A stretch of DNA of 50,366 nucleotides from contig CACXFH010000099.1 of NCBI GenBank assembly GCA_902766975.1, positions 1-50,366 on the forward strand. The letters run 5' to 3'. Made by a program: the position numbers and the translations under genes. Positions 1 through 40,853 of this stretch are shown here, in pieces; the first letter of the stretch is position 1, and every line of letters begins with the position of its first letter. The notes under the pieces were generated by a model. The model was not told the origin of the DNA, searched no databases, and worked only from the letters and a program-made list of their open reading frames with translations. The stretch is from an uncultured bacterium. Its GTDB lineage: Bacteria > Cyanobacteriota > Vampirovibrionia > Gastranaerophilales > Gastranaerophilaceae.

Positions 1-20
1 TACCGCTGCGCCACAGGCCC
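1..20 (-). tRNA. 5' end of a tRNA gene truncated by the window edge (isotype not determinable)
   Basis: Reverse complement of 1-20 reads GGGCCTG TG GCGC AGCGGTA. That gives a 7-nt acceptor arm, U8-G9, the start of a GCGC D-stem and an AGCGGTA D-loop with A14 and G18G19. The rest of the gene lies outside the window. Confidence 0.4.
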
Positions 21-55
21 GTGACGACTTATTATACCTATTAAATTTTCAATTT
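19..55 (-). promoter_or_regulatory. Copy A of a duplicated ~37-nt block directly 5' of the tRNA (minus strand), containing a TATAAT hexamer
   Basis: 19-55 and 144-181 share ccgtgacgacttattata-NN-tattaaattttcaa (32 identical positions). On the minus strand this reads TTGAAAATTTAATA-NN-TATAATAAGTCGTCACGG, with TATAAT ending 10 nt before the RNA 5' end. There is no well-spaced -35, so promoter status is inferred. Confidence 0.4.
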
Positions 56-143
56 TTGCGCCCGGCTTGCGGTAGCTGCGCTACCTTTCCTCTCCTCGGA
101 CGTGACATTTAGTCACCTCCTCGTCGGCAGAGTGCCACACTCA
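56..143 (-). ncRNA. Unclassified small structured RNA candidate (~85-90 nt)
   Basis: No ORF is present. The region sits behind block B exactly as the tRNA sits behind block A. The minus-strand sequence forms three local hairpins: GGCA-CTC-TGCC (126-136), GGAGGTGAC-TAAAT-GTCACGTCC (98-120) and GGTAGC-GCA-GCTACC (71-85). Purine-rich GGA-containing linkers separate them. It has no acceptor pairing and no T-loop, so it is not a tRNA. It is also not one long hairpin, so it is not SRP-like. Confidence 0.3.
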
Positions 144-181
144 CCGTGACGACTTATTATAAGTATTAAATTTTCAAATTT
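144..181 (-). promoter_or_regulatory. Copy B of the duplicated TATAAT-containing block, 5' of the small RNA candidate
   Basis: Near-identical to 19-55; see copy A. Confidence 0.4.
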
Positions 182-3409: not shown

Positions 3410-3505
3410 GTGAGTGGGTTCCCTCACCCGAATTTCAAACTTTCGCATACTGCTCAAGTTGAAATTCTACCCTCTCCCACCAAAATGACGCTGCGGCGAG
3501 GGAAG
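3410..3505 (+). repeat. Composite copy of the GC-rich palindromic mini-element, carrying a nested AT-rich hairpin
   Basis: The parts are gtgag..ctcac (3410-3427), ccctcaccc (3421-3429) and the inner inverted repeat gaatttcaaactt/aagttgaaattc (3430-3467). These are followed by ccctctccc (3470-3478), a 17-nt loop and gcgagggaag (3496-3505). The same arms occur in the compact copy at 40817-40853. Confidence 0.6.
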
Positions 3506-3519
3506 CAGGAGAATAAGAG

Positions 3520-4272
3520 TTGAGTAAAGATATTACAAAATCAGAATATATGACGGCTCCGTTTAAAGTTATGAAAAAGAAAACGGATTTATGTAATCAG
3601 GCTGACATTTTTAAATCCAAAAAATCTTTCAAAGAAGCTATTTGCTGTTATCTTAATTCCGTTTTGCTAGACAGAAACAATCCGGATACCTACTTAAATT
3701 TAGGAGTATGTTACAAAAACTTGGGCAAAATTAAAAAAGCAATTAATTCATTGGAAAAGGCTGCGCTCCTTGATAAAGATAATTTTGATACGTTTTATGA
3801 ACTCGGACTTTGTCATTTGGAAGATGAAACCCCTTGTAAGGCTATAAAATGTTTTATTCATGCGGTAGAACTTGAACCTGATAACGCGGATGCAATCTAT
3901 CAGCTTGGTTTGGCGCATGAAAAGTGCGATGAGCAGGATATGGCGATGATGATTTATCAAAAATTGATTGAAAATACCCCGACATATATAAACGCCTATA
4001 TCAGGAAATCAACTTTATTGATGAAAATGGAATTATATAATTCCGCACTTGATTTATATAAACAGATTTTAAAAATTAATCCGGATTATGCAAAAGGATA
4101 TTATGACATTGCTTTTTGCCTTGACAAACTTGGCAAGCAAAGAGAAGCAAAGCGCTATTATCACAAATTTTTGGAATATAACCCTGATGATAAAAATGCA
4201 AATTTTGCAATGCAGAGAATGGAAAAGTTAAAAAAAATATCCAATTCCCGGATAAAATTATCTCTTGTTTAA
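3520..4272 (+). CDS. Tetratricopeptide (TPR) repeat protein
   Basis: 250-aa ORF made of serial 34-aa TPR-like units (..AI.CY..A..LDP.N.DA.Y.LG...). A TTG start at 3520 is preceded by AGGAG at 3506-3510. An alternative ATG at 3550 has no SD. Confidence 0.7.
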   Translation: MSKDITKSEYMTAPFKVMKKKTDLCNQADIFKSKKSFKEAICCYLNSVLLDRNNPDTYLNLGVCYKNLGKIKKAINSLEKAALLDKDNFDTFYELGLCHLEDETPCKAIKCFIHAVELEPDNADAIYQLGLAHEKCDEQDMAMMIYQKLIENTPTYINAYIRKSTLLMKMELYNSALDLYKQILKINPDYAKGYYDIAFCLDKLGKQREAKRYYHKFLEYNPDDKNANFAMQRMEKLKKISNSRIKLSLV

Positions 4273-5685
4273 ATTTTTCACAAATTCAACTGCCTGTGGT
4301 TTGTTTGTGATGTCACCGTTTAACTGGGCTTCGTGAAGTTCGTTTAAAATTTTGCCCAACTGCGGCGACGGTTTGATATTTAATAATTCCATAATGTCAT
4401 TCCCGTCCAATAATTTTGGCAAAGGTTTTATTGTTTCAAGGCTGTCAATGTAAAACTTGAGAAGTTTATCAAGCATAGTGAGATTTTCTTCAATCATTTG
4501 TTGTGTTATTTCAGGTCCTAAAGCCGATAATCTGTCAGCTTTTCCGATAATTATTGCATCAATTGAGTCGTCTTCCATCTTTCGAACATAGCGCATCATA
4601 ATCTTATCTGATAATTCCGGCGAACAAACCACCATAGTTGCATACATGTGATTTTTAATCATTTTTTGTATGTATTTAATCTGTTTATTGGAAAAAGCAA
4701 GATGCCGCAATATTTCCGGTGCCATTTTTGAACCGACATCATCATGCTTATAAAATCTGTGACGTCCTGTATTTCCCTCAATAAACCATGTTGAAAATTT
4801 ACCTATATCGTGCATAAATGCTGCCAACTTTAAATGCGCAAGTCGTGAAAAGCCCCCAAAATCAACTTTATGCAAATGTTCTTTTACTATATCCGTTGAA
4901 TTTTCATACAAAATTTGAATTTGTTTAACCGTTTCAATGCTGTGATGGAATAAATCCAAATGATGGTGTGCGTTTGGTGGTACTTGTTTTAATTCATCAA
5001 CAAAAGGAAAAATTAATTCTAAAATTCCGCATTCATCCATTTTCAAAAGGGCGCCATCCGCATATTCCCCGTCAAATAGTTTCATTAATTCGTATTCTAC
5101 TCGTTCTTTTGCCGGCTTACTAAGCAAAGTAGCATGCTTTTTTGCAATTTTCATCAAATCTTGAGAAATCTTAAATCCCAAAGTCGAATGAAATCTGAAA
5201 ATGCGCAAAAGTCTTAAAGGGTCATCAGTAAAATTTTCCTCTCTTATCTCGTTTAAAATTTTATTCTCAAAATCTTTTAGCCCGTTTGTCGGGTCAAAAA
5301 TTTCGCCGTTTTTTATGTTTATTGCGATTGCATTAACGCTTAAATCACGTCTGTAGATGTCTTTTTCAAGTGAATTTTCAATCGGATTTGTAATATCAAG
5401 ATAATTTTTTTTATCATTTAATACAACCCTGTAAATTTTATTTCCCTCATCAAGCGGAATGAATTTTTCATCAAAAAATTTTGCAATCTTCATTGAAATT
5501 TTTTTTGCATCGCAATCGGTTACAATCAAATCTCTGTCAGTGATTTCTTTATCAAGCAAAATATCACGTACAGCTCCGCCAACAAGCCAGATATCATTAT
5601 CAAAAAAGCTTGCCAAATTATTTAAGATTTCATCGTTTTGTATTCTATTTTTTATAGTTTGAGTATTCATAAATAATATTTCCAA
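4258..5685 (-). CDS. cca: CCA-adding enzyme / tRNA nucleotidyltransferase with HD domain
   Basis: 475-aa ORF. Motifs include the PolyA_pol head (WLVGGAVRDILL, DRDL, RRDLSVNAIA), RLLRIFRF, and the HD domain (HHHLDLFHHS ... FMHDIGK). The start may instead be the internal MNTQT. Confidence 0.85.
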   Translation of the reverse strand: MEILFMNTQTIKNRIQNDEILNNLASFFDNDIWLVGGAVRDILLDKEITDRDLIVTDCDAKKISMKIAKFFDEKFIPLDEGNKIYRVVLNDKKNYLDITNPIENSLEKDIYRRDLSVNAIAINIKNGEIFDPTNGLKDFENKILNEIREENFTDDPLRLLRIFRFHSTLGFKISQDLMKIAKKHATLLSKPAKERVEYELMKLFDGEYADGALLKMDECGILELIFPFVDELKQVPPNAHHHLDLFHHSIETVKQIQILYENSTDIVKEHLHKVDFGGFSRLAHLKLAAFMHDIGKFSTWFIEGNTGRHRFYKHDDVGSKMAPEILRHLAFSNKQIKYIQKMIKNHMYATMVVCSPELSDKIMMRYVRKMEDDSIDAIIIGKADRLSALGPEITQQMIEENLTMLDKLLKFYIDSLETIKPLPKLLDGNDIMELLNIKPSPQLGKILNELHEAQLNGDITNKPQAVEFVKNLNKR

Positions 5686-6427
5686 GTGCTACTGTTGTTG
5701 CTGTTTCAGCTCTTAGTATCATATCGCCCAGTGTGAGCATTTCAATAGTATTTTCCCTTCCTCCTTGGGGGAGAGGGAGTAGGGCTGAGGGGTTGTTAAA
5801 CCACTCAAATTCCTTTTGTGAAAATCCTCCTTCAGGTCCGATAATTACAAGAACTTTATCCCCTTTTTTTATCGGATTTTGTTCAAAAGATTCTCTTATA
5901 GTTTTTGTTGCAATTCTTTCGCAAAAAACAATTATTTTGTCAAAATGGTCTTCGGCTAAAAGTTTTTTGATTGTTGTGCGGGGATAACATTTCGGAATGT
6001 CTGCTCTTTCGCACTGTTTTGAACTCTCATACATAATTTTTTGCCACTTATCAATTTTTTTATCCGTCATTTCGTTGTTCAGGGCGCAATTATCGGTTTT
6101 GACAGGATAAACCCCGCTTACACCAAGTTCCGTAGCTTTTTCAATCAAGAGATTTTGCGCATCGCTTCGCAAAGGGCTTTGGGCAAGATAAAGTTCAAAA
6201 TTTAAAAACCTTTTTGAAGGGTAAAATTTGTTAATTCCTGTCGTAATTTTATCATTAGTAATGGCTTCAATAACGGTTTCATACTGTATTTTGTTTTCAT
6301 CAATAAGCAAAAGTTTTTCGCCTGTTCTTGCACGTAAAGAGCGTGCAATGTGAAAATAATTCTCCTTGTCAGATATTATAATTTTGTTGTCGTTGACTTG
6401 ATTTGATTTTATAAAAAAATGCGGCAT
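5645..6427 (-). CDS. rsmE: 16S rRNA (uracil1498-N3)-methyltransferase RsmE, carrying a 13-aa insertion
   Basis: 260-aa ORF. It has the MPHFFI start typical of RsmE, and GPEGGFS ... LGDMILRAETA at the C-terminus. The spacing between these two motifs is 29 aa, against 16 aa as I recall the E. coli and B. subtilis proteins. Confidence 0.85.
   Translation of the reverse strand: MPHFFIKSNQVNDNKIIISDKENYFHIARSLRARTGEKLLLIDENKIQYETVIEAITNDKITTGINKFYPSKRFLNFELYLAQSPLRSDAQNLLIEKATELGVSGVYPVKTDNCALNNEMTDKKIDKWQKIMYESSKQCERADIPKCYPRTTIKKLLAEDHFDKIIVFCERIATKTIRESFEQNPIKKGDKVLVIIGPEGGFSQKEFEWFNNPSALLPLPQGGRENTIEMLTLGDMILRAETATTVALGNIIYEYSNYKK
5753..5791 (-). repeat. GC-rich palindromic mini-element inserted in frame inside rsmE (encodes PSALLPLPQGGRE)
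   Basis: The minus strand reads cccctcagccctactccctctcccccaaggaggaaggg. This aligns with the intergenic copy cccctcacctgccctctccccgaaggggcgagg. It is a 39-nt GC-rich island inside an AT-rich gene. Confidence 0.7.
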
Positions 6428-6484: not shown

Positions 6485-7996
6485 TCAATCTATTATAATT
6501 TCTTTTTCGTTTTTGTATGTGACATAGCCCAAATTCGCTTTAGGCGGTTTTCGCAGGTATTTGCGTTTTGTGTAAATTACTCCTATTTTTGAGGAATTTT
6601 TTCCTTGAGAATTTTCTTTTGCTAATTTTGCGCATTCCAGAATTAATTCATCCGTTAAATTTTGAGTTTTGAGCAAAACATGAGAGCCGGGGCAATCTTT
6701 GGTGTGAAACCACAAATCCTCATCTGATGCGAGTTTCGAAATTATATAGTCGTTTTGTTTATTGTTTTTGCCGATATAAATTCTTGTTTGATTCTGTTTT
6801 TCAATGCAAGTAATACCCTTTCCCGAATTTCTGATATTCATATTTTGCTTTGAAATTCTGCCATTTTTCATAGGTTGAGGAATTATAAGTTCGTTCTCTA
6901 TTTCTTTTAATTCTTCAATATTATTTGTAATTTCAATTGAATACAAAACACTTTCAAGGTATTGTTTATTCTGTTTGCTTTCTTCAATCAGTTCATTTAA
7001 TTTTATCCCTGCGTTTTTGCATTTATTATATTTTTTATAATATTCATTGGCGTTTTCTTTGACGGTTTTTGTATCTTTAAGCAAAATCGTGATTCCTTGA
7101 TTGTTTTCGTAATCAAATACTTTTGCTTCTTTTATGTAATCTTTGAGATTGTACAGGTTTGCCATTAGTAAATCTCCGTAAAGACGGTATTTGTCAAAAT
7201 TGTTGCTGCGATTTAATTGGGAAAGCATTTCGTTTAAGGATTTTTCGCATTTTTTTAATTTTTGGTTAGTCAAAGTAAGGTATTTCGATTTCAATGCTTT
7301 AAATTTCGCTTTATATGTCAATGTTGCATAGTAATTATCTATGAGAGAATTGACATTTTTAAACATAATATCGGGATGGATTGTTTCGCTTTGCTCGCAA
7401 TGGCATAGTTCCTTTTGTTTAAAATAACTAAATAAAAATGCATATCGTTCTTCAATAAAATATTTTGAGGAATGTTCGGGAGGATAGGTATAAGGGATTT
7501 GCCCGTAAACTTCCCTTACCTGGCTTTTGTCTGCTCCAACATTATGCGCACAACCTAAAATAATGTTTGTATCGGTATTATATAAAACTACGTTTGAATA
7601 TTTCCCCATAAGTTCAACAGCCAAACAAAGATAAATTTTATCCCCTATTTCGTTGTATGTTTCGACATAAAGTTCTAAAATTCTATCCCCGTCCGGTTGT
7701 TCAATTTTTGCGATGCGGGAGTTGTTGAGATATTTGCGCAAAAGCATACAAAACATCGGAGGTTTTGAGGGAATCTCTATAAGTCTTTTTCTTGAGTTTT
7801 GTTCAGACATAAAGCAAACATGATACATTTCCGGATTAATATTTATATAAAATTTCCGTGTTTGTCCGTTATTGCGCATAGAAAATATAAGTTCTCTGCG
7901 CGTTGGTTGTTGAATTTTATTAATTCTCGCATTGCAAATGAACTCTTTATTCTCTTCAATAAATTCTTTTAGAATCAAACTGTCAAATGAAATCAT
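6485..7996 (-). CDS. rqcH: NFACT-family ribosome quality-control protein (RqcH / FbpA-like)
   Basis: 503-aa ORF. It has an NFACT-N-like N-terminus (MISFDSL...INKIQQPTRRELIFSM), a central coiled coil, and the C-terminal DUF814/NFACT-R1 motif DLWFHTKDCPGSHVLLK. Confidence 0.75.
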   Translation of the reverse strand: MISFDSLILKEFIEENKEFICNARINKIQQPTRRELIFSMRNNGQTRKFYININPEMYHVCFMSEQNSRKRLIEIPSKPPMFCMLLRKYLNNSRIAKIEQPDGDRILELYVETYNEIGDKIYLCLAVELMGKYSNVVLYNTDTNIILGCAHNVGADKSQVREVYGQIPYTYPPEHSSKYFIEERYAFLFSYFKQKELCHCEQSETIHPDIMFKNVNSLIDNYYATLTYKAKFKALKSKYLTLTNQKLKKCEKSLNEMLSQLNRSNNFDKYRLYGDLLMANLYNLKDYIKEAKVFDYENNQGITILLKDTKTVKENANEYYKKYNKCKNAGIKLNELIEESKQNKQYLESVLYSIEITNNIEELKEIENELIIPQPMKNGRISKQNMNIRNSGKGITCIEKQNQTRIYIGKNNKQNDYIISKLASDEDLWFHTKDCPGSHVLLKTQNLTDELILECAKLAKENSQGKNSSKIGVIYTKRKYLRKPPKANLGYVTYKNEKEIIID

Positions 7997-8062: not shown

Positions 8063-8135
8063 GTTATTCCGAATTTATTTCAGATTTCATCTATTTAGTT
8101 TTTATAGGTTGATTCTGAAACAAGTACAGGATGAC
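8063..8135. repeat. Two head-to-head copies of a small palindromic repeat (gtcatcctg..tttcagaatc type) in the aspS leader
   Basis: The left copy is gttattccgaatttatttcagatttc (8063-8088). The right copy is gattctgaaacaagtacaggatgac (8111-8135), whose reverse complement is gtcatcctgtacttgtttcagaatc. They are separated by ~22 nt. The overlapping spurious ORF translates it as ILKQVQDDM. Confidence 0.5.
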
Positions 8136-10095: not shown

Positions 10096-13000
10096 TTATT
10101 TAGTGGCTTCTTCTAAGTAACTATTCCCAAATCTTACGTTTATTGATGTTGTTTTGTTGTCTTTTTCATCTTTGTTAACGATAGTGGGGGTTTTACCTAT
10201 TTCACCGTTAACTACTTTAACATAGGCATCATTTCCGGCATTTATCAAGGTCTTCTTAGTTCCAAAATTCTTAATGCTACCGTCAACAACTTTGATATTT
10301 ACATCGTGTTTCGCTGAGATATAATTATCATTTTGATTTTGATTTGAACCAATCAAAACATTACCGCCATTTGCATTAATTTTTACATCATTTTCGGCTT
10401 TTATCTGACCTGCTGCAAAAACACCTCCAACAGAACTGTCATCGATATTTATATCGTGGTCTGAATTCACTGATGCATTTGTGTTTACAATTGTAGCATC
10501 TTTACCTTTGTTGGTAATATTTACATCATTTATTGAATTAACTTTACCGTCAATGTGAACGCCGTTAGTGCCTGTATTTACCATATTAACATTTTCAGCG
10601 GTTACAACACCTGTTCTGATAATGTTAGTTCCTTGAGCTCCTGTATTGTCTAAAATAACATTACCGTCAGATGTAACATTACCACTGATATTTATTTGAG
10701 AACCGGTATTTTTAATTGTAGCATCTTGGCTATTTTTGAATGTTCCAAGGATACTTACAGGTCCGTTGTCATTTATCAATGTTGCAGTACCATAGTTATT
10801 CAATTTACCTGCAACTACTAAACCGTGTTGACCTTTATTTGTTATATTAAGATTTCCATTATTATTAACAACTCCTGATTCGTGGATTTTCACCCAACCT
10901 TGGTTATTAACAATGTCCATCGTTCCTTTATTATTTACAATACCTTTTATGTGGGTACCATTTGTACCGTTATTTGTCATTTTTAGATTATTTGTATTTA
11001 TGCTGCCACCTTGTCTGACATTGATACCAATCATTCCGTCATTGGAAATATTTAAATTCCCTCTTTCGGTTGTGACATTTCCGTAAACATTTACACCATT
11101 TCTGGCATTTGCACCGCTGTTTATATCAACATCATTGTAGCTGTGAACCCTTCCTCTGACATTCAAACCATAGTATCCGTCATTTTCAAGTACCAGTTTC
11201 CCTGCAGGAACAGTAGAATCAACATTCCCGTGTTCAATATTGCCGTAAACATTCAAGCCGTTTGTTCCTGTATTTTTGATATTCCCTGATGTCCCTATAA
11301 CAGTTGTTCCGTACAAGTTTATTCCGTTTTTGCCTGAGTTTGTCATTGAAACATTATCAGCCATTATTAAACCGTTTTTATCTTGGTTTATACCTATTTC
11401 GCCACTGTTTATCATTGCAATGGCACTGCCTGAATTGCGTGTTTCTCCATATACATTCAAACCGCCGGCTTCATTTTTAAAGGTTGCGCTGCCGTTTGAA
11501 GTATTTGCTTTACCGTATACTTTTAGCCCGTTTGCACCGCTATTTTTGTATTGTGCGTTGCCTGATGCGTTGACTTCGCCTCTTATAACCAGTCCGCCGG
11601 CACCGGTGTTATCCATTACAAGGCTGTCTTTATTCAAATTGTTGGAAGTTACTTTCCCGCCTTTAAAGACTTCTAATCCGCCTCCGCCGTAATTTTTTAC
11701 GACTAACTCTCCGTTATTGTTTTCCTGAATACCTGCAATCTTAATCCCTTCGGTGGTATTCCCTGAATTGATTATTTCTCCATAGCCGGTGTTGGACATT
11801 CTACCGTACATCTTAATCCCTGCTGCCCCTTGGTTTTGAGCACTTAATCCTTTTGATTTAACATTTCCGGTAGCAACAATATTTAAACCTTTGTCTCCAT
11901 AATTGTTGAGTGTCAGTTTACCGTCATTATCTATAGTCCCTGAAACATTAATCTGAGTACCGTTGTTTGTGAATGAAGATTCTCCTGCATTTGTAAATTT
12001 ACCCGGAATACTTATAGAGCCTGAATGGTTACGTGCAACGGTTGTTCCTTCATTCGCCACTTCACCTGCAAATATTAAGCCGTAATTACCTTTATTTTCA
12101 TATGTAGCTGTCCCGCCTTTATTTGACATATAGCCTGTTTCATAAACCTTTAAAGCTCCGGCATTGTTTGAGTATGCACCATTCCCGTTATTTAAGACCT
12201 TACCGTGGATGTTCATACCGTTTGCACCGCTATTTGTCATGCTTAAACCTTGAGCATCAATTACTCCGTTTTTAGAAACGTTTAGTCCGTATTCGCCGGA
12301 ATTACTCATTGCTAATTGACCGTTTTTATTAGTAAGTGTGCCTGTTACGTTCAATCCGCCCTTTTCCGAATTTATAAATTCTGCATTTCCATTGTTATTA
12401 AATGAACCTTGGACAAATACACCTTTTACGCCTTGAGGAGCATTTGAGACAAGAGCCGTTCCTGCATTATTTACTTTTCCGCCAAGAACAATACCTTGTT
12501 TGCCGGTATTTTTAATTTCTATACCCTGAGAATTGATTTCAGAAGCTGCTGTTTGGTATATCCATTTGTCGCCGCTGTTATCTAAAGTTAATTTGCCGTT
12601 TGAATTTGTAATGTTGCCGGAAACGGTGAGTTGAGTACCACTGTTTTGAATAGTTGTATTTCCGTTGTTTTTAAAATTCCCGCCAATTGTTACTACTCCG
12701 GATTTATTATCAACGACAGATGTCCCGTTACTGCTTACATTTGCATCTATAACTGCACCTTTAGCTCCTGTATTAGATATATACAAATTCTTGTCGCTTA
12801 TTATTTGAGAGTCTTTTACAAAATACATACCGCTGCCTGTATTTACTATTCTTAAATCGCCGCCGTGGTTTTCTACTTTTGCAGTATTAGCTCCAAAAAC
12901 TCCGCCTGCGTTATTAGTAATATTCAAATTCCCTTTATGATTTACAACATTTCCGAATATATGAGTACCTACATCCCCGTAATTTGTTATACTTGTATTT

Positions 13001-13779
13001 CCTGTTCCGACATTTTGAACATTGCCGGATATTTCGCTTCCTCTGGTTGAAGTAAATGAAATATTACCGTTTCTGGTTGAAATTTGATTTGCGTAATTTA
13101 TATTTGAAGTGTTTACTAATGTATCAAACAATTGGTCTGCTCTGCTATTTCTGCCGAATGCTGAATTGATACCTGTTCCTGCGGCAACTTTACCCGGAAC
13201 TTGAATTAAAGATGAAACAACATCAACATCATTAGCTGCAAATACATGACCGTCAATTTTTACGGCTCCATTTCCTACATTCTCTTTGCTTTTAAGCGCA
13301 CTTAAATCACTGCTCGGGTTATTCTTAAAGCGATTATATGTATCGGTATTAGGAGTATAAACACCTAAAGATCCTACATTCAAAACCCCTGAAGCGCCTA
13401 CTACCATGCCGTTTGGAGAAACAAATATTGCTCTGCCGTTGTAGAAATTCCCATCTCTCATTGTATTTACGATACCGTTAATTTTGATTGTATTATCGAC
13501 TAAGTTAACAAATGAGTTTATATTCTTATCCCCGTATTTATATATTAAGTTTGCAATATCTCCGGCACTTAAATCAAAATTATTATATTTTCTTAAACCT
13601 ATATCCGTATTTTTGATAATGGCTGTCGGGTCAATGTTGTAAACTCCGTTATTTCCTGTAACATTTGTAATATTTGTAGCCATTGCGGAAACAAATACAG
13701 ATTGCTGTATTATAAATGCTGCCGTTAAAACTGCACAAATTACTCGTTTTGAATTCTTTAGATTAGTTTTCATTTCCAT
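10096..13779 (-). CDS. Filamentous-haemagglutinin-like TPS-domain beta-helix exoprotein (short form, without spacer or PilZ)
   Basis: 1227-aa ORF. A signal peptide is followed by a TPS/haemagglutination-activity domain (GVYNIDPT..., [43 protein letters not shown]). The remaining ~900 aa are Asn/Gly-rich ~20-aa coils (N.G..G..V.G.V.N.G.A...N) organised in ~230-aa super-repeats. The GAAAGGA SD favours the second ATG at 13773. Confidence 0.85.
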   Translation of the reverse strand: MEMKTNLKNSKRVICAVLTAAFIIQQSVFVSAMATNITNVTGNNGVYNIDPTAIIKNTDIGLRKYNNFDLSAGDIANLIYKYGDKNINSFVNLVDNTIKINGIVNTMRDGNFYNGRAIFVSPNGMVVGASGVLNVGSLGVYTPNTDTYNRFKNNPSSDLSALKSKENVGNGAVKIDGHVFAANDVDVVSSLIQVPGKVAAGTGINSAFGRNSRADQLFDTLVNTSNINYANQISTRNGNISFTSTRGSEISGNVQNVGTGNTSITNYGDVGTHIFGNVVNHKGNLNITNNAGGVFGANTAKVENHGGDLRIVNTGSGMYFVKDSQIISDKNLYISNTGAKGAVIDANVSSNGTSVVDNKSGVVTIGGNFKNNGNTTIQNSGTQLTVSGNITNSNGKLTLDNSGDKWIYQTAASEINSQGIEIKNTGKQGIVLGGKVNNAGTALVSNAPQGVKGVFVQGSFNNNGNAEFINSEKGGLNVTGTLTNKNGQLAMSNSGEYGLNVSKNGVIDAQGLSMTNSGANGMNIHGKVLNNGNGAYSNNAGALKVYETGYMSNKGGTATYENKGNYGLIFAGEVANEGTTVARNHSGSISIPGKFTNAGESSFTNNGTQINVSGTIDNDGKLTLNNYGDKGLNIVATGNVKSKGLSAQNQGAAGIKMYGRMSNTGYGEIINSGNTTEGIKIAGIQENNNGELVVKNYGGGGLEVFKGGKVTSNNLNKDSLVMDNTGAGGLVIRGEVNASGNAQYKNSGANGLKVYGKANTSNGSATFKNEAGGLNVYGETRNSGSAIAMINSGEIGINQDKNGLIMADNVSMTNSGKNGINLYGTTVIGTSGNIKNTGTNGLNVYGNIEHGNVDSTVPAGKLVLENDGYYGLNVRGRVHSYNDVDINSGANARNGVNVYGNVTTERGNLNISNDGMIGINVRQGGSINTNNLKMTNNGTNGTHIKGIVNNKGTMDIVNNQGWVKIHESGVVNNNGNLNITNKGQHGLVVAGKLNNYGTATLINDNGPVSILGTFKNSQDATIKNTGSQINISGNVTSDGNVILDNTGAQGTNIIRTGVVTAENVNMVNTGTNGVHIDGKVNSINDVNITNKGKDATIVNTNASVNSDHDINIDDSSVGGVFAAGQIKAENDVKINANGGNVLIGSNQNQNDNYISAKHDVNIKVVDGSIKNFGTKKTLINAGNDAYVKVVNGEIGKTPTIVNKDEKDNKTTSINVRFGNSYLEEATK

Positions 13780-14071: not shown

Positions 14072-17000
14072 TTATTTGAATGATATATTTTGATTGCTGT
14101 CTAACAGCATATTCAAATATAACAATTGATTTGCTGTTGCCTGATCAAGATTTACGAATCTTGCTCCTGCTCTTGACGTTGTTGAAGTTACGACTTCCGC
14201 ATTTGCTCTGATGTCAAGATTACCATACTGTAAGTGGATTGGTACGATATCACCGTTTTTCAGAGTATTGTTATGTTTAAGAGCGACACCGCCTCTTGAT
14301 ACGTCTATTAAGCTGTCAACATTATCTGTTCTTTCCATTGATACAGGAATTGCGGTATTATTTACATTGTATCTTACATATTGACGTTTATCGATTGTAT
14401 CTAAGTTATCTTCATCAATTCTGTTTTTGTACAACAATCTTGTATCATCATCCGGCGGAGCGATTGTCGGTTCCGGAGTTGGTTCCGGTGTCGGCTCAGG
14501 AGTCGGTTCCGGTGTTGGTTCCGGCGTTGGCTCAGGAGTCGGAGATTCTGTCGGTTCCGGAGTTGGCTGAGGAGTCGGAGGTTCCGTTGGCTCCGGCGTT
14601 GGTTCCGGAGTCGGTTCCGGTGTTGGCTCAGGAGTTGGTTCCGGTGTTGGCTCAGGAGTCGGTTCCGGTGTTGGCTCAGGAGTCGGCTCAGGCGTTGGTT
14701 CAGGAGTTGGCTCAGGAGTTGGTTCCGGAGTTGGCTCAGGAGTTGGTTCCGGCGTTGGCTCAGGAGTTGGTTCAGGAGTCGGTTCCGGTGTTGGCTCAGG
14801 AGTTGGTTCCGGTGTTGGCTCAGGAGTTGGTTCCGGAGTTGGCTCCGGCGTTGGTTCCGGTGTTGGCTCAGGAGTCGGTTCCGGAGTTGGCTCAGGAGTC
14901 GGTTCATCAGGCATTTCTAACGGAGTTGCGTCTACAATGCCATCATCGTCATCAACATGAGACTGTTCTCCGTCAAATATTCCATCACCTGTTCCTTCAG
15001 GATAATAGTAATTTCTTTCATGCTCATCACGACCTGTATCTTCCACATCGCCTGGTCTTACTGCATGACCTGTTGGGATATCAGGACCATCATCAACATG
15101 AACACCTACAACTTTATTTGTAGAAGGATTAACTGATTTTGAAAATCCGTCTCTGTTAATATGTGATTCAATACCGTTTGCATAAATATTATCTGCTGTT
15201 ATATCTAAAGTTCCATTATCAAGCACGGCATTATCAACTTTTACTGTTGAGCCTGCCCAAGCTTCGTGCCCGCCGTCAACAAGTTCTTCTGTCGGTCTGA
15301 TATTATGGTTAATATCCAAAGCTTTTACTACTGCATGATTTGGTAATGCTTCATCTCGATAATCTGCTCCTGTATATCCGCCATCTTGCTGACCGTAATT
15401 TCTTGGTCCGAGATAATCATTCGGAATTACAGATTCATCAGTAATGTGACCGAGATTCTTAATTTCTAAATTCTTACCGCGGGTAACAACTTTTAAATCA
15501 CCCTCTGCTGTTATATTATCAATTGTTGTATTACCTGCAAATTCAATATTTGCATCGCCTTTTCTTGCAATAATCGTACAAGCCTTATTTGTTTTAACTT
15601 CATTTGCACGACCATAGTTTGAATCATTGAAACTGTTTTCTTTTAGGTTAATATTGTTTTCTGCAAGTACATCCATGCTATAACCTTGTTCTGCACCTGT
15701 TTGAATAAAGGTAACAGCTTTATCGGCTGCTCCGATATTGCCGTTTGAAATCAAGGATATGCCTGTACCTTCAATGTTGGTATCAGAATTATTGGTTCTT
15801 GCATTGACCATATTATAGCGTTTTGCACCCGTGTTATTGTAACCGTAATCATCATCAACAGTTAAGATAACACGTCCGTCAGCCTTAATCGTATCAATGT
15901 TCATATCAGAATCAATTGCTGCGTAGTTGATTACCAAATCTTCCGGTTTTGTAACTTTATTTGTTTCAGCTTTAACTTTACCTTTGATATTTGCATTAAC
16001 AGATTTTGTAAAGTCACGTGAACCTTCGGCTTTTGGTCCGATACCTGTACAACCTGAGCCTGTGCATGCAGCCTGCTGAACAGGAAGCCCGATTGTACCG
16101 TCGGTAACTTTCATTGTCAAATCACCGCCTGCATTCAATAAGACTTTTTCAACACCGTAGTTCAAGATGCTTCCGTTATCCACAGTGATTGCAATATCAT
16201 TACCTGCTTTTACGTAATTGTTATTTGATGTATTATCCCCGATAACAACGTTACCGCCACCTTTTTGATTAATAGTGGTATCGTTCTTACTGTTGGTAAG
16301 ACCTTGGATTCTTGTTCCACCTGCTGAATTATCATTTATAAGAATGTTATTTTCAGCATTTACTCTTGCATTTGACGCAATTAACGTACCTGCAGCACCT
16401 GTATTATTCATTTCAACATTATTTGCATGAATGTTACCTGATTGTATTACATTTAAACCGCCTGCTCCGTTGTTAGTAAACTTAGCATTACCCCCAACAT
16501 TTACTGCGCCGGAGACATTCATACCGTCAATACCATCAACTGTATTTAAGAATTCGGCATTGCCGTCTGTCGTAAACGTACCGCCGACATTCATTGCAGC
16601 TGTTGTATTTTTAGATCTGCCGTTGGCATAACCGTTTTCAACATAAGAATCTCCGTGAGTAAGCATATTTCCGGAGAGATTCATACCGTTTTTACCTTTG
16701 TTACGAACGGTTAATTTGCCGTTTGTCTCAACTTTACCTGTTACATTCAATGCTGTTTCGGTATTGCCTTGTGCAGGAACATTGAAAATATCAGTATTCC
16801 CGCCATTTTTTACGGTGCCGGAAATCAACAAATCGCCTTCGTTATTATTAATTAATACTCGTCCGTTTGCGTTTGATACATTACCGCTGATAGTTAATCC
16901 TTTTGCTGCATCGTCAAAGTTTCTGATTTCTAATGAACTGCCTGTTCCGACTGCAAAGTTTTTAACTGTACCTGCGATATTTGCACCATTATCATTTGGA

Positions 17001-17749
17001 GATCCGGTTCCGTTTCCTTCGGCTGAAATTATAATATGCCCGTTCCCATCACTTGCAAAAGTATTTGCTGTATTTAAATTGTCCGCATTTACAAGGTTAT
17101 TAAATAAAGCATTTGCCATTGCCTGAGAATCCATTTTTACCATCTTATTGGCATTAACTCCGCCGACAACAACAGCATCTTTTGCAATGTCAACGGTTGA
17201 TGCTTTCAATTCCACATCGCCTGCTGTTACGATTTTACCGTTAACTTTAATTGCTCCGCCTGAATTTACGTCATAGTCTTTTAAAGCTGCTAAGCCTTCA
17301 GCGGTTTGATTACGTTTAATTTGGTTATATCCGTATGAATCAGGAGCATAAACACCCAATGAACCGACGTTTAGCACCCCGGATGCGCCTACAACCATTC
17401 CGTTCGGAGATACAAATACTGCATTCCCGTTGTAAAAAGCGTTACCTCTTACGGAATTTACGATACCATTAATGTTAATTTGATTATCTACCAAGTTTAC
17501 AAAAGTATTGATATCGGCAAAATTCAAGTTTGCGATATCTCCTTGGGTTAAATTAAATTTTTCGTAGTGGCGGAAACCCGTTCCTCCGTCTACTTTTGTC
17601 GGGTCAATGTTGAACACTCCACTTGTTTGATTAAAACCCGAAATCTCACTGGCAACGACACTCAGTGCCATCGTTTGTTGAAGCATAAACACACCTGTCA
17701 TGAGAGATGCGATTATTCTTCTTTGAGTTTTCCTACTCTTTCTCATCAT
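14072..17749 (-). CDS. TPS-domain beta-helix exoprotein with (TPEP)n spacer and C-terminal PilZ domain
   Basis: 1225-aa ORF. The signal peptide is [33 protein letters not shown]. The TPS domain carries [16 protein letters not shown] and [27 protein letters not shown]. Beta-helix coils follow, then ~150 aa of TPEP repeats, then a terminal PilZ-like domain. GAAAGGA lies 8 nt before the ATG. Confidence 0.85.
14075..14400 (-). other. PilZ-like domain (C-terminus of 14072..17749)
   Basis: The sequence is [10 protein letters not shown]..(22 aa)..[39 protein letters not shown]...AGARFVNLD. The RxxxR motif lies at 14373-14387 and the DxSxxG motif at 14288-14305. Confidence 0.7.
14452..14911 (-). repeat. 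Coding tandem repeat: 12-nt unit encoding (TPEP)n, ~150 aa
   Basis: ggttccggtgtt / ggctcaggagtc-type units are reiterated with synonymous variation. The array is markedly GC-richer than its surroundings. It creates long stop-free artefact ORFs in other frames. Confidence 0.9.
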
Positions 17750-17988: not shown

Positions 17989-20900
17989 CTATTTCAGTGA
18001 GATTTTATTTACTTCATCAAGTACCATATTCAAATATAGTAATTGGTTTGCAGTTGCCTGATCAAGATTTACAAATTCTGCTCCTGCCCTGCTGTTGGTT
18101 GCGGAAACAACTTTTGCATTTGCCTTGATGTCTAATGAACCATACTTCATATGAATTGGAATAATATCTCCGACTTTGAGGTTATGGTCGTGTCTTACTG
18201 CTACACCGCCCCTCGAAACATCAAGCAATGTATCTACAGAATCATTTCTTTCCAATGATATCGGATTTTTGTTACTCGAAACAGTATATCTTACATATTG
18301 ACGTTTATCTATTGTATCAAGATTATCTTCATCGATTCTGTTTTTGTACAAAAGCTTGGTATCATTATCCGGCCCGACAGTTGGACCTTGAGTCGGTTCG
18401 GTTGTCGGAGCTGTAGTTGGTTCAGTTGTCGGAGTTGTAGTCGGTTCGGTTGTCGGAGTTGTAGTTGGTTCGGTTGTCGGAACTGTTGTTGGTTCGGTTG
18501 TCGGAACCGTTGTTGGTTCGGTTGTCGGAACCGTTGTTGGTTCAGTTGTCGGAACTGTTGTTGGTTCTGTTGTCGGAACCGTTGTCGGTTCTGTTGTTGG
18601 TTCGGTTGTCGGAACCGGAGTTGGCTCAGATGTCGGAACCGTAGTTGGTTGTTCTGTTGGTTCCAAAGTTGGTTCAACAGTCGGTGGCTCCGTTGGTTCA
18701 GGAGTTGGTTCAGTTGTCGGATCGGTAGTCGGATCCGAAGTCGGTTCTGAAGTTGGTTCTGCTGTCGGAGGTTCAGTCGGTTGAGGAGTTGGTTCAACCG
18801 TCGGCTCTACTGATGGTTCAACAGTCGGCTCTGCAGTTGGCTCTACTGTCGGTACCGGAGTTGGTTCAGGAGTCGGAGCATCGGTGATTTCCAACGGAGT
18901 AGCGTCAACAATTCCGTCTTTTGGTTCGTCAACATGTGATTGTTCCTCTCCAAATACGCCATCTCCATCTCCCGGGTTATAATAATAATTTCTTTCATGT
19001 TCATCTCTGCCAATGCCTGTAACATCTTCAGGTCTGACTGCGTGCCCTGTAGGGATATCAGGACCGTTTGAAACAGATATACCTTCTATTTTATTTGTTG
19101 AGGGATCAGGTTCTTTTGAAAATCCGTCTTTACCTAAATGTGTCGCAACTCCATTTGCATAAATGTTATCTGCAACCACATCCAATTGTCCTTTATCCAA
19201 TTTCCCGTCATTGATTCTTACAACGGAATCGGCATAGCCGTAATAACCGCCATCCACGTCAGTTCCGTTCGGTCTGACGGTTTTGTTTATATCAAGTGCT
19301 TTAACAGTTGCATTATTGGGGATTGAATCTGTTTCTCCGACACCTGTATAACCGCCGTTTGGCAAATTCGGATTATCTGCAAGACCGTTTGTTCTTGGTC
19401 CGAAATAATCAACAGGAGTTCTTGGAACTGTCCCCAAATGATTAATTTCTAATGATTTACCTCTTGCAATGATGTTCATATCTTTTTCTGCAGTAACTTC
19501 GTCTATGTACGTATTTCCGGCAAATTCGGCATTCAATTCGCCTTCTCTTGAAATCATTGAACAAACATTATTGACAGAATATTTATCATCTAAGCCTTTA
19601 ATATTAATATTTTCATTGGCTAAAACATCCATCCCGTATCCTTTGCTCGGGACAGGGGCACTCTTTGTTGCTAACACTCCGGGTTGAGTTTGGTTGAATG
19701 TTAATGGTGCATTCTCAGTGCCTATATTTTTACTTGCAATTAATGATAAACCATACCCTTGAACATTGGGTTTAGCCGCATTTTTTGATGCGTTATTAAT
19801 ATTGTATCTTGTAATGCCGTCGTTCTGATTATAATCAGTTGTGAGAATTACACGACCGTCTGCATCAATATTGTCTATGTTCATATCGGAATTTACGGCA
19901 GCATAATTTATTACAAAGTTATTTTGTTTAACCGCGGTTGAATCTGTTGTTTTTGCTGTAACAGCACCGTTAATATGTCCGTTTATTGATTTTGCATAAT
20001 CTCTTGTAGTTTCGGCATTTGAAATTCCCGTACAATACCCGCCTGTGCAGTTATCCCCAACATTGAGGCCGATTGTACCGTCAGTGACATCCATATTCAA
20101 ATCGCCGCCTGCCTTTAATAATGTTTTAGCAGCATTTATGTGCATAATTCGAGCATCAGCCTGTTGGCTTTCATAATTCAAAATGCTGCCATTTTTTACA
20201 TTTATATCAATATTTTTTCCTGCGGTAATATAATTATTGTTTGATGTTCTGTCACCTATTACAACATTACCGCCGTTTTCTTTAATGTAAACATTATTAT
20301 CAGCATTTGTTAAACCTTTATGAGCAATACCGGAAACGGATGTATCATTCATTAAAACATCTTGGTTAGAGTCAACTTTACCTGAAGATGCTATTAAAAT
20401 ACCGTCACTTCCTCTGTTCGTAAGTTCAACATTGCCGTTTGAACCGATATTACCGCTTAATATAATTCCTCTTGTTGATAAATTATTTACGGATGTAACT
20501 CCTTTGCCGTGGTTCATAACGGAGCCTGAAACGTCTGTCCCGTTTACGGATGTAAATGTGATTGCCCCGCCATTTTTACTCATATTTTTGGCAGATTTCA
20601 TGCTGCTTGTATTTACAAGTTGTTCAAATACGTTATCATCAAAAGTACTCACAACTCCCGTACCGTTTGCAATCATTTTGCCCGGCACATTAATTTTAGA
20701 TGAAACAATGTCTATATCCTGAGCCGCAAGAACTTTACCATCAATTTTTACAATACCGTCCCCTGCGTTATTAGGATTTTTTAATGCCGACAAATTAGAA
20801 CTTGGGTTATTTTTATAGTGTTCATAAACAGTACTGTTTGGAGTGTATACCCCCAAAGAACCGACATTTAAAACCCCTGAAGCTCCGACTATCATCCCGT

Positions 20901-38149: not shown

Positions 38150-38187
38150 TACCTCTTATCTTAACCTCTCCCAACAAGGGCAAGGAA
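38150..38187 (+). repeat. Degenerate copy of the GC-rich palindromic mini-element (between alr and the lpd-like gene)
   Basis: tacctcttatcttaacctctcccaacaagggcaaggaa aligns with cccctcacctgccctctccccgaaggggcgaggaa. Its minus-strand complement provides AAGAGGTAAG 5-9 nt before the ATG at 38142. Confidence 0.5.
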
Positions 38188-40811: not shown

Positions 40812-40816
40812 GTAAA

Positions 40817-40853
40817 GCCCCTCACCTGCCCTCTCCCCGAAGGGGCGAGGAAA
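40817..40853 (+). repeat. Compact reference copy of the GC-rich palindromic mini-element
   Basis: The sequence is gcccctcacctgccctctccccgaaggggcgaggaaa. The arms cctctcccc/ggggcgagg pair at 8 of 9 positions around the loop gaa. The minus-strand complement places GGTGAGGGG 6 nt before the ATG at 40811. Confidence 0.7.

What the first reader, a model, noticed from the sequence alone, without database searches (positions are those of the whole stretch)
5753..5791. GC-rich palindromic mini-element inserted in frame within rsmE
Seen: inside the AT-rich rsmE gene lies a 39-nt GC-rich block. On the minus strand it reads cccctcagccctactccctctcccccaaggaggaaggg, and it aligns with intergenic repeat copies at 40817-40853, 38150-38187 and 3421-3505. 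It encodes PSALLPLPQGGRE. It lengthens the segment between GPEGGFS and LG..ILRAET from 16 aa to 29 aa; the 16-aa figure is my recollection of E. coli RsmE and B. subtilis YqeU. The reading frame stays open.

Established knowledge: Rickettsia palindromic elements are a precedent for selfish palindromic repeats that insert in frame into essential genes and are tolerated as surface loops.

Inference: the same phenomenon is occurring in this lineage, close to the SPOUT-fold C-terminus.
Basis: partly seen in the sequence, partly recalled or inferred. Interest (0 to 1): 0.65.

Follow-up and report, generated by a model that had tools for sequence, protein, structure and literature searches.

The report
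BoxC-type repeat translated inside rsmE
A 38-base G+C-rich repeat of the family known in E. coli as BoxC/TMECO sits in frame inside the rRNA methyltransferase gene rsmE of a rumen Gastranaerophilales bacterium and adds a 13-residue floppy loop, at a spot where related species carry no insert or quite different mini-repeats.

Summary
ORF 5645..6427(-) is RsmE (Pfam, Foldseek TM 0.79-0.85). It carries 13 extra codons (5753-5791) in the loop between GPEGGFS and LG..ILRAET: 29 aa against 16 aa in about 60 species of the same order and in solved RsmE structures.

The insert is a decayed copy of a three-box repeat (CCCCTCACC / CCCTCTCCCC / GGGGCGAGGG). This is the BoxC / PIT / TMECO "intrastrand triplex motif" described in E. 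coli (PMC4666352). The E. coli consensus scores 37 at 5755-5792 and 46 at the intergenic copy 40818-40850, against 21±2 in shuffles. The better-preserved orthologous insert in a relative matches E. coli copies at up to 90.7%.

The insert is real: the identical protein lies on at least 10 contigs, and contigs of four runs carry it without a gap. AlphaFold places it in a low-confidence loop.

In close relatives the same four-codon window is empty, or holds the same repeat in either orientation, or holds at least five unrelated mini-repeats, some nested. A second rsmE loop and the neighbouring NFACT gene behave likewise.

How the repeat inserts remains unknown. Its DNA is better conserved than synonymous sites, which is unexplained.

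The parts
5645..6427 (-). rsmE, 16S rRNA m3U1498 methyltransferase (PUA-like domain plus SPOUT domain), 260 aa. It is the host gene of the insert. Its 3' end overlaps the start of the ORF listed for the CCA-adding enzyme gene.
   Evidence: Pfam PF04452 at 3e-37 and PF20260. phmmer to the RsmE structures 1VHK, 5O95 and 4E8B. AlphaFold model with pLDDT 83.7; Foldseek TM 0.79-0.85 to RsmE structures.
5755..5792 (-). Decayed BoxC/TMECO-type three-box repeat, with the C-rich strand as the coding strand. Box 1 is CCCCTCAGCC (5792-5783), spacer CTACT (5782-5778), box 2 CCCTCTCCCCC (5777-5767), loop AA (5766-5765), box 2' GGAGGAAGGG (5764-5755).
   Evidence: Sequence. Three-box pattern hit with 0 hits in 200 shuffles. 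The E. coli TMECO-A consensus scores 37 here against 21±2 (max 26) in shuffles. 30/38 identical to the orthologous copies in L002 and L082. It matches the published TMECO pattern only with up to 2 substitutions per block and a 4-nt second loop.
5753..5791 (-). The 13 inserted codons, PSALLPLPQGGRE (residues 213-225). They are read through as a loop between helix 204-211 and strand 228-231.
   Evidence: empty site...gaatttgcagagaaaaaaattgaa.... pLDDT is below 50 at residues 217-225. 13-residue gap in the alignment to 1VHK.
40816..40853 (+). Best-preserved copy of the same repeat in the window. It is intergenic, between ORFs 39345..40811(-) and 40864..41844(-), so the G-rich strand lies in the sense of those genes.
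   Evidence: I9; score 46. It matches 4889 of 5426 complete E. coli genomes, median 6 places each, at 85-87% over 37-40 nt, in unannotated DNA.
3421..3503 (+). Composite copy, intergenic. Box 1 (3421-3429), nested 38-nt hairpin element gaatttcaa...ttgaaattc (3430-3467), box 2 (3470-3478), an enlarged 16-nt loop, then box 2' GGCGAGGGA (3495-3503).
   Evidence: Sequence. 3421-3473 is 90.6% identical over 53 nt to part of the rsmE insert of L093. The same composite is nested in the N-terminal rsmE insert of L095.
38150..38187 (+). Possible strongly decayed copy (CCTCTCCC plus a weak hairpin) in the 48-nt spacer between two minus-strand genes. It is not significant on its own.
   Evidence: Alignment scores of 19-23 lie within the shuffle range.
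7364..7417 (-). A second in-frame mini-repeat of another family, in the neighbouring NFACT/RqcH-like gene (6485..7996, -). It encodes QKELCHCEQSETIHPDIM.
   Evidence: Present in the window, L001, L002, L003, L081 and L092. Absent from L005, L006, L008, L010, L021, L065 and L083. L007 carries a different element at the same place. Coordinates.
8115..8135 (+). Intergenic copy of a widespread hairpin mini-repeat (cTGAAACAAGTaCAGgatgac). The same repeat forms part of the 159-nt rsmE insert of L093.
   Evidence: blastn-short gives 95% over 21 nt; the same element occurs in more than 12 related loci.

Best explanation
The block is a copy of the BoxC / PIT / TMECO repeat. This is a roughly 36-nt motif of one C-rich block and two G-rich blocks, or the reverse on the other strand. 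It was first described in E. coli.

Shown:
- The copy lies in a four-codon window of rsmE that codes for the loop joining the helix after the GPEGG motif to the strand before LG..ILRAETA.
- It is 39 nt long. At least its consensus has five of six frames free of stops (read by hand), so the reading frame survives.
- The repeat family is dispersed within these genomes and far beyond them.
- Empty sites exist in relatives.
- The repeat occurs at this site in both orientations, and the reverse-orientation copy arose inside a clade of empty-site alleles, so insertion was de novo.
- The insert lies in a low-confidence loop of an otherwise confident RsmE fold model.
- The insert is fixed in this species.

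Inferred:
- It is translated as a 13-residue Pro/Leu/Gly-rich disordered loop that RsmE tolerates.
- It does nothing useful for RsmE. The peptide diverges faster than the rest of the protein, and in this window the pairing and triplex potential has already eroded.
- The same window and a second rsmE loop have taken up at least six unrelated mini-repeat families. This is mainly because these are the few places in a compact knotted enzyme where extra residues are harmless, and because a structured repeat, once present, makes the spot prone to further insertion, replacement or deletion.
- The way the repeat copies itself is not known. No terminal inverted repeats, target duplication or transposase were found. 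I favour a structure-dependent, trans-acting or repair-linked copying of single-stranded hairpin/triplex DNA, with low confidence.
For: Host gene and insert:
- Identity of the gene and position of the insert.
- The loop segment from GPEGGF to (M)LTLG is 14 aa (16 aa between GPEGGFS and LG) in about 60 species of the order; inserts occur only in the closest rumen clade.

Identity of the repeat:
- Published pattern and the list of E. coli copies.
- The E. coli consensus against the window scores 46 and 37, against 21±2 in shuffles.
- The window's intergenic copy matches 4889 E. coli genomes.
- The orthologous rsmE insert of L082 matches 4616 E. coli genomes at up to 90.7% over 43 nt, E = 4e-6.
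- The reverse-orientation rsmE insert of L095 meets the published pattern with at most 1 mismatch per block.
- An exact three-box pattern occurs in more than 120 viral-collection contigs of 36-74% G+C.

The insert is real and fixed:
- The identical protein lies on at least 10 contigs from several samples.
- Contigs of 4 runs from 4 studies cover the insert with no gap or joint.

Insertion events:
- DNA of 17 alleles at the site.
- Each insert type has dispersed copies elsewhere.
- Bootstrapped tree: the reverse-orientation copy is nested in an empty-site clade (88-97%), and sister alleles carry different inserts (100%).

Tolerance:
- Model with pLDDT 83.7, and below 50 at residues 217-225.
- TM 0.79-0.85 to RsmE structures.
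- All catalytic motifs are invariant in insert-bearing alleles.
- No truncated allele among the best 120 homologues.
- Peptide identity is 31-62% in the insert against 82-94% elsewhere in five of six pairs.

Generality:
- In-frame mini-repeats in the NFACT gene and at the rsmE N-terminal loop.
Against: - The window copy itself fails the strict published definition. It needs 2 substitutions per block and a 4-nt second loop, and it gives no BLAST hit to E. coli. Family assignment therefore rests on local-alignment statistics and on orthology with better-preserved copies.
- Translation of the insert is inferred from the open frame only. No RNA run was available and no proteomic data were used.
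- The insert's DNA is more conserved between species than neutral sites. It is 92% against 43% at four-fold sites for L002/L082, with flanks about 70% by my reading of the alignment. This does not fit a purely neutral passenger inherited from one old insertion.
- No mobilising enzyme, terminal repeat or target duplication was found, so 'mobile' rests on presence/absence patterns.
- Allelic recombination between species could produce part of the patchy pattern.
Confidence: 0.8

Rival explanations
1. Site-specific targeting. The repeats, this family and the others, are aimed at this exact DNA position by an integration mechanism that recognises the local sequence or structure, for example the A-tract GAGAAAAAAATT of the empty site. 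The same element would then have entered the same nucleotide position several times independently. Selection for harmless loops would be secondary.
For: - The same family lies at the identical nucleotide position in the window, L001, L002 and L082, and in reverse in L091 and L095.
- The insert is 92% identical between L002 and L082, while four-fold sites are 43% identical and the flanks about 70% by my reading of the alignment. Young independent insertions would explain this.
- Five other families lie in the same four-codon window.
- In the NFACT gene, one site carries two different families and the other at least two.
Against: - No conserved target motif or duplication is visible across about 25 copies of the family.
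- An exact-pattern scan for the L082/L002 subfamily found only another rsmE copy, so no abundant source copy was seen.
- The window copy and L001 are clearly decayed, which fits age rather than youth.
Confidence: 0.3
2. The insert has been put to use. Its DNA or RNA structure, or the extra loop, is kept by selection. It might act as a pause or structure in the mRNA just upstream of the overlapping cca start, or as a local generator of variation, or as a modified RsmE surface.
For: - DNA-level conservation is above the neutral expectation, including at synonymous third positions of the insert: 11/13, read by hand from the sequences, against 43% at four-fold sites.
- The insert is retained across species that differ at 14-18% of residues elsewhere.
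- In the window copy the right arm reads AAGGAGGAA, which is like a ribosome-binding site.
Against: - Many close relatives do well with an empty site or with unrelated inserts.
- The peptide sequence is poorly conserved.
- L001 and the window copy have lost pairing.
- The AGGAGG lies 19 nt from the next ATG, too far to serve it.
- In E. coli the family showed no promoter or terminator activity (PMC4666352).
Confidence: 0.1
3. The insert is not translated. It is bypassed by the ribosome or removed from the RNA, as reported for GC-cluster 'byp' elements in a yeast mitochondrion.
For: There is a precedent in PMC8811140. No RNA or protein data were available here.
Against: - All 17 alleles examined at the DNA level, with inserts of 27 to 159 nt from at least six families, keep the frame and have no stop.
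- No truncated allele appears among the 120 best homologues. This is what selection on read-through predicts, and bypass would not need it.
Confidence: 0.03
4. There was no insertion. The segment is an ancestral or locally expanded low-complexity loop, or an assembly artefact.
For: None beyond the proline-rich look of the peptide.
Against: - About 60 species and the solved structures have the short loop.
- The DNA matches a dispersed repeat known from E. coli.
- The insert is 39 nt, which I expect to be shorter than a read, and appears in independent assemblies made with different assemblers.
Confidence: 0.01

Closest known systems
BoxC / PIT / TMECO G/C-rich intrastrand triplex motif of E. 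coli and other Proteobacteria (Holder et al. 2015, PMC4666352; Hoyne & Maher 2000 and 2002, as cited there)
   Same: - Same three-block architecture and nearly the same sequence. The window's intergenic copy is 85-87% identical to E. coli copies, and the L082 rsmE insert is up to 90.7% identical.
- Dispersed copies in either orientation.
- Associated with local small-scale instability, which here appears as nested insertions, replacement and loss at one site.
   Different: - In E. coli MG1655 the motif is 'always located intergenically', and it was not found on phages, plasmids or transposons. Here a copy is inside a coding sequence and read in frame.
- The host here is a Gastranaerophilales bacterium with 35% G+C.
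- The three-box pattern occurs on more than 120 contigs of a viral collection.
- The window copy is decayed and fails the strict pattern.
- Gain at an empty site gives direct evidence of new insertion. I found no such evidence in the parts of that paper I read.
Rickettsia palindromic elements (RPE; Ogata et al. 2000, as summarised in PMC10969869)
   Same: Selfish repeats inserted in frame into conserved housekeeping genes, compatible with the fold and function of the host protein. Several families occur in one lineage.
   Different: - RPEs are about 100-150 bp and restricted to Rickettsia. This element is 38 nt with an unrelated sequence, and its family spans phyla.
- Here several unrelated families pile up at one codon window.
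G+C clusters of yeast mitochondrial DNA (var1 in-frame insertions; PMC8811140)
   Same: - Short G+C-rich structured repeats in an A+T-rich genome.
- Mostly intergenic, but inserted in frame in a gene of the translation apparatus, giving protein length polymorphism.
- They merge, nest and shuffle.
- Their mechanism is unknown.
   Different: - The setting is a different domain of life.
- Yeast clusters have terminal AG/TAG repeats read as target duplications; none is seen here.
- Some yeast elements are bypassed in translation, for which there is no sign here.
REP/REPIN elements mobilised by RAYT transposases, and MITEs
   Same: Small non-autonomous structured repeats, 20-40 bp in the case of REPs, present in many copies.
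   Different: - No GTAG/CGTC tag, no terminal inverted repeats and no target duplication were found.
- No RAYT or transposase was linked to the repeat, and none was looked for genome-wide.

Membership tests
BoxC / PIT / TMECO triplex motif | Pattern 5'-CCCTCNCCC N3-6 GGGNGAGGG N3 GGGNGAGGG-3', with at most one mismatched position in the stems (PMC4666352) | tested here: not met
   - The window copy 5755-5791(+) matches only with up to 2 substitutions per block and a 4-nt second loop. The same holds for 40819-40851. These are the only two hits in the window, with 0 hits in 100 shuffles.
- The rsmE insert of L095 meets the pattern with at most 1 substitution per block.
- L082, L002 and L001 meet it except for a longer second loop (a 2-5 nt range had to be allowed).
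- L046, from the same order, meets it exactly.
BoxC / PIT / TMECO triplex motif | Significant sequence similarity to the E. coli copies | tested here: met
   - The E. coli type A consensus against the window scores 37 at 5755-5792 and 46 at 40818-40850, against 21±2.0 (max 26) in shuffles.
- BLAST of 40806-40862 hits 4889 E. coli genomes.
- BLAST of the orthologous L082 insert hits 4616 genomes, best 90.7% over 43 nt, E = 4e-6.
- BLAST of the window's rsmE copy gives no hit.
BoxC / PIT / TMECO triplex motif | Dispersed in several copies in the genome | tested here: inconclusive
   Only 50 kb of this genome is held. It contains two significant copies, one composite copy and one doubtful copy. 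Related genomes carry up to 12 or more copies in 2 kb (L017). No whole-genome census was possible.
BoxC / PIT / TMECO triplex motif | The isolated strand folds into an intrastrand triplex | not testable with these tools
   This needs CD or NMR on the oligonucleotide. The hairpin part of the window copy is weak (-5.9 kcal/mol, z = -0.64), so triplex formation is doubtful for this copy.
Rickettsia palindromic elements | Element of about 100-150 bp belonging to one of the RPE sequence families of Rickettsia | tested here: not met
   The element is 38 nt and lies in a Gastranaerophilales genome. Its sequence family is BoxC/TMECO. Only the behaviour, in-frame insertion in conserved genes, is shared.
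MITE | Terminal inverted repeats and a target-site duplication | tested here: not met
   The ends CCCCTCA... and ...GAGGG are not inverted repeats of each other beyond the internal box 2/2' pairing. Comparison of filled sites with the closest empty sites (L216, L083) shows no duplication longer than about 1 nt.
REP / REPIN (RAYT-mobilised) | GTAG or CGTC tag at one end, and an associated RAYT gene | tested here: inconclusive
   No GTAG or CGTC tag is seen in the copies listed. The presence of a RAYT gene could not be examined without whole genomes.
RsmE (host gene) | PUA-like N-terminal domain plus SPOUT domain with the GPEGG and LGxxILRxETA loops | tested here: met
   Pfam PF20260 and PF04452. 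The motifs are invariant in 34 aligned relatives. Foldseek TM 0.79-0.85 to 1VHK, 5O95 and 4E8B.

The most novel reading that the evidence does not exclude
BoxC/TMECO-type motifs, so far treated as static intergenic oddities of Proteobacteria, would be an actively copying, cross-phylum class of about 36-nt elements. They would be maintained near one consensus from E. coli to Gastranaerophilales and enter specific DNA positions repeatedly, including coding sequences. The rsmE site would then be a true integration hotspot shared with other mini-repeat families, implying an unknown, widely conserved host or phage-borne copying machinery.
Probability: 0.2. Interest if true: 0.8.

Novelty: new variant of a known kind. 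Interest (0 to 1): 0.55.

Why it matters
BoxC/PIT/TMECO motifs have been known for about thirty years without a function or a known way of spreading. In the 2015 survey's analysis of E. coli MG1655 they were intergenic and not found on mobile elements.

This locus offers a natural experiment. Closely related genomes carry an empty site, the motif in either orientation, nested derivatives, or unrelated mini-repeats, all at one four-codon window of a conserved enzyme.

That gives direct evidence that the motif enters new sites. It extends the family to the sister lineage of the Cyanobacteria. It adds a bacterial parallel to Rickettsia RPEs and yeast mitochondrial GC clusters.

It also shows that a loop inside the knotted SPOUT domain accepts inserts of 9 to 53 extra residues in intact, conserved alleles.

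For genome annotation, it warns that such G+C-rich peptides (PSPLPPLP.., GERG.., CHCEQSEAI..) inside proteins of A+T-rich gut bacteria are repeat-derived.

Tried and rejected
- An nhmmer profile built only from non-rsmE copies, dominated by one L017 subfamily, ranked 5752-5797 and 40813-40852 first. Its E-values were only 0.4-1.5 and its scores were barely above shuffles. The model was too heterogeneous and was replaced by pattern and local-alignment tests.
- An earlier profile included window copies, so it was circular and was not used as evidence.
- Rfam found nothing in the window at gathering scores, and nothing in 1-400 at E ≤ 1.
- No RNA-seq run holds the gene, so transcription through the insert could not be checked.
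- BLAST of the window's own rsmE copy against E. coli gave nothing.
- No target-site duplication or shared flanking motif was found.
- Stop-to-stop frames suggested other copies 'inside ORFs' in L017, L032, L062 and L021. These proved to be repeat arrays upstream of pilin-like genes, not coding insertions.
- A hit in the NFACT gene of L008 was ordinary sequence.
- A literature search for repeats in Melainabacteria found nothing relevant.
- A look-up of the DNA for the empty allele P0016 failed because the file was too large.
- ARAGORN found no tRNA in the G+C-rich block at the window start.
Full report
**1. The observation**

The window is 35% G+C. ORF 5645..6427 on the minus strand encodes a 260-aa protein. 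It matches the RsmE family (PF04452, 3e-37, split into two stretches) and the PUA_4 domain.

Within the ORF, the minus strand at 5792-5755 reads CCCCTCAGCCCTACTCCCTCTCCCCCAAGGAGGAAGGG. The 13 codons at 5791-5753 give PSALLPLPQGGRE.

This is one of two short G+C islands of this sequence type in the window. The other is at 40815-40852. The octamer CCTCTCCC occurs 5 times, against 0.41 expected.

**2. It is an insertion**

The closest homologues are 74-87% identical but vary from 245 to 298 aa. Aligned, the length differences fall at two points. The main one is exactly here.

A scan of one genome per species placed the window in the Gastranaerophilales (Melainabacteria/Vampirovibrionia) of rumen and gut. 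In about 60 species the stretch from GPEGGF to (M)LTLG is 14 aa. Only the closest rumen clade has more.

B. subtilis YqeU (1VHK) also has 16, and HMMER opens a 13-residue gap opposite the insert.

**3. It is real and fixed**

The identical protein is on at least 10 contigs from several samples and assemblers. Contigs of four runs from four studies (bovine, sheep and other gut samples) cover the site without a gap or joint, with a few SNPs.

**4. What the element is**

Copies from related genomes show a three-box design:
- box 1: CCCCTC(A/T)CC
- a short spacer
- box 2: CCCTCTCCC(C)
- a 3-5-nt loop
- box 2': GGGG(A/C)GAGGG, complementary to box 2.

A pattern built only from non-window copies hits the window at 5756-5791(-) and 40819-40851(+) and nowhere else. 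It gives no hit in 200 dinucleotide shuffles. The rsmE copy of another genome (L082) scores 46 and 38 at these places, against 21±2.1 in shuffles.

Their G+C ranges from 36 to 74%, median 64%. The family is therefore not peculiar to A+T-rich genomes.

A search of the literature for the box sequences led to Holder et al. 2015 (PMC4666352). The motif is their 'TMECO', earlier called BoxC or PIT: 5'-CCCTCNCCC N3-6 GGGNGAGGG N3 GGGNGAGGG-3'. They report the following:
- 23 copies in E. coli MG1655 and 3610 copies in 262 proteobacterial genomes.
- The motif forms a triplex as an isolated strand in vitro but not detectably in vivo.
- It has no promoter or terminator activity.
- In MG1655 it is 'always located intergenically'.
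- It is associated with small local rearrangements.

I checked the identification directly:
- The window's intergenic copy matches 4889 of 5426 complete E. coli genomes, median 6 places each, at 85-87% over 37-40 nt, in unannotated DNA.
- The L082 rsmE insert matches 4616 genomes at up to 90.7% over 43 nt, E = 4e-6.
- The E. coli type A consensus, reverse-complemented, scores 46 at 40818-40850 and 37 at 5755-5792, against 21±2.0 (max 26) in shuffles.

The window's rsmE copy is decayed. It fits the published pattern only with two substitutions per block and a 4-nt second loop. It gives no BLAST hit to E. coli by itself. Its hairpin is no better than shuffles.

- 3421-3503 is a true relative split by a nested 38-nt hairpin element. 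3421-3473 is 90.6% identical over 53 nt to part of L093's rsmE insert.
- 38150-38187 is not significant alone.

**5. The site in relatives**

DNA of 17 alleles was compared.

| State at the site | Alleles | Extra length |
|---|---|---|
| Empty (...GAATTTGCAGAGAAAAAAATTGAA...) | L083, L005, L216 | 0 |
| This repeat, forward | window, L082 (best preserved), L002, L001 (decayed) | 39 nt |
| Forward, with another element nested inside it | L081, L094 | +54 nt, +39 nt |
| The same repeat, reverse orientation | L091, L095 | 27 nt, 36 nt |
| Unrelated elements | L092 and L021; L090; L008; L003; L093 | 39, 66, 75, 117, 159 nt |

Every insert type has dispersed copies elsewhere in related genomes.

A bootstrapped codon tree with the inserts removed gives these groupings:
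- The reverse-orientation alleles lie inside a clade of empty alleles (88-97%). This is a de novo gain.
- L008 and L090, which carry different elements, are sisters (100%).
- The empty L216 and L092 are sisters (100%).
- L002, L081, L003 and L093, which together show three states, form one clade (99%).

The site therefore gains, swaps and probably loses inserts. Allelic recombination may contribute.

A second hotspot near the N-terminus holds a 24-nt hairpin (TCGGCGTTGCCACGCCGA) in several species. In L095 a composite copy of this same repeat is nested within it.

The neighbouring NFACT/RqcH-like gene also carries in-frame mini-repeats at two sites. One is in this window, at 7364-7417, encoding QKELCHCEQSETIHPDIM. 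The other shared genes for which blocks were scanned (the CCA-adding enzyme and the lipoate-ligase-like gene among them) show no G+C-rich insert, and aspS hardly varies in length (592-594 aa).

**6. Effect on the protein**

The AlphaFold model (pLDDT 83.7) has the RsmE fold, with TM 0.79-0.85 to 1VHK, 5O95 and 4E8B. Residues 213-225 lie in the loop between helix 204-211 and strand 228-231. pLDDT is below 50 at residues 217-225.

The catalytic motifs are invariant in all insert-bearing alleles. No truncated allele appears among the best 120 homologues.

The insert's peptide is less conserved than the rest of the protein (31-62% against 82-94% identity in five of six pairs).

These points fit a tolerated passenger that is read through. 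Direct proof of translation is lacking, because no RNA run was available.

**7. What does not fit neatly**

At the DNA level the insert is better conserved than neutral sites of the same gene. For L002 against L082 it is 36/39 identical. Four-fold sites are 43% identical, and the 30-nt flanks about 70% by my reading of the alignment.

An exact scan of a metagenome collection for that subfamily found only one more rsmE copy, so no abundant source copy is in sight.

Three readings remain open: constraint on the DNA itself, gene conversion from other copies, or repeated site-specific insertion. The near-identity of the family from E. coli to this lineage poses the same question on a larger scale.

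**8. Mechanism**

The following are shown:
- in-frame presence of the insert;
- the identity of the repeat family;
- empty sites in relatives;
- de novo gain at an empty site;
- several families at the same site;
- loop location in the model.

The following are inferred:
- read-through translation;
- neutrality for RsmE;
- the view that the hotspot reflects permissive loops plus repeat-induced local instability, in line with the instability reported for E. coli.

The copying mechanism is unknown. No terminal inverted repeats, target duplication or GTAG tag were found, and no enzyme has been identified.

**9. Comparison and novelty**

In behaviour this is the RPE phenomenon (PMC10969869). Still closer is the yeast mitochondrial GC-cluster/var1 case (PMC8811140).

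In identity it is a BoxC/TMECO-family element. What is new:
- a coding, in-frame copy;
- the host lineage;
- direct evidence of insertion;
- a multi-family hotspot inside a knotted SPOUT domain.

I rate it a new variant of a known kind, of moderate interest.

Noticed in passing
window 7364-7417 (-), inside ORF 6485..7996: The NFACT/RqcH-like gene next to rsmE carries an in-frame mini-repeat of another family (QKELCHCEQSETIHPDIM). It is absent from seven related species, and L007 has a different element at the same place. A second site of the same gene carries two further repeat families in relatives.
   Followed up: partly
L005, L007, L021, L094 and L095: rsmE codons about 19-27: This is a second insertion hotspot in rsmE, in the PUA-like domain. 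It holds a 24-nt perfect hairpin (aggTCGGCGTTGCCACGCCGAcaaaat, encoding RSALPRRQ). In L095 a BoxC/TMECO copy that itself contains the gaatttcaa...ttgaaattc hairpin is nested in its loop.
   Followed up: partly
L017 8177-9949 and 16100-16500; L032 6640-6730 and 13540-13585; L030 9474-9919: Dense arrays of several G+C-rich mini-repeat families, including 12 or more BoxC/TMECO-like copies in L017, lie upstream of genes with a prepilin-type N-terminus (AFTLAEVLITL...). They create long spurious open frames.
   Followed up: partly
L021 9153-9230; L003 10643-10750; L008 10643-10709: One mini-repeat family has complementary blocks in interleaved order (a-b-c-a'-b'-c') rather than nested hairpins. Simple nesting of palindromes would not give this arrangement.
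   Followed up: no
L002 10632-10676 against L082 2041-2085: The rsmE insert is 92% identical between two species whose four-fold degenerate sites are 43% identical, while the flanks are about 70% identical by my reading of the alignment. The repeat's DNA is kept, or renewed, far beyond neutral expectation.
   Followed up: partly
Viral-contig loci L096-L215: The exact three-box pattern occurs on more than 120 contigs of the viral collection, with G+C of 36-74% and several copies on some contigs. The 2015 survey reported no association of the motif with phages, plasmids or transposons. Whether these contigs are true phages or prophage-flanking host DNA was not examined.
   Followed up: no
window 1-170: A G+C-rich block of about 90 nt (64-155) is flanked by a direct repeat, GTGACGACTTATTATA..TATTAAATTTTCAA. 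Similar short matches occur in three related loci. It matches no tRNA and no Rfam family.
   Followed up: partly
window 10096..13779, 14072..17749 and 17989..21273 (-): Three paralogous genes encode proteins of about 1100-1230 aa with no Pfam hit. Two of them contain long arrays of 12-nt tandem repeats (14442-14992 and 18344-18700) that raise the local G+C to 45-47%.
   Followed up: no
L011 about 10600-10760: The rsmE of the species representative RUG14818 carries the 75-nt insert and also lacks about 20 codons, including LG..ILRAETA (...NDIQLEMLTLEYSNYKK). It is either a degraded gene or an assembly error.
   Followed up: no
window 5645-5685: The rsmE stop lies 41 nt inside the listed ORF of the CCA-adding enzyme gene (4258..5685, TTG start). 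The called gene in sister contigs starts later, with a 26-nt overlap. The two genes appear tightly coupled.
   Followed up: no
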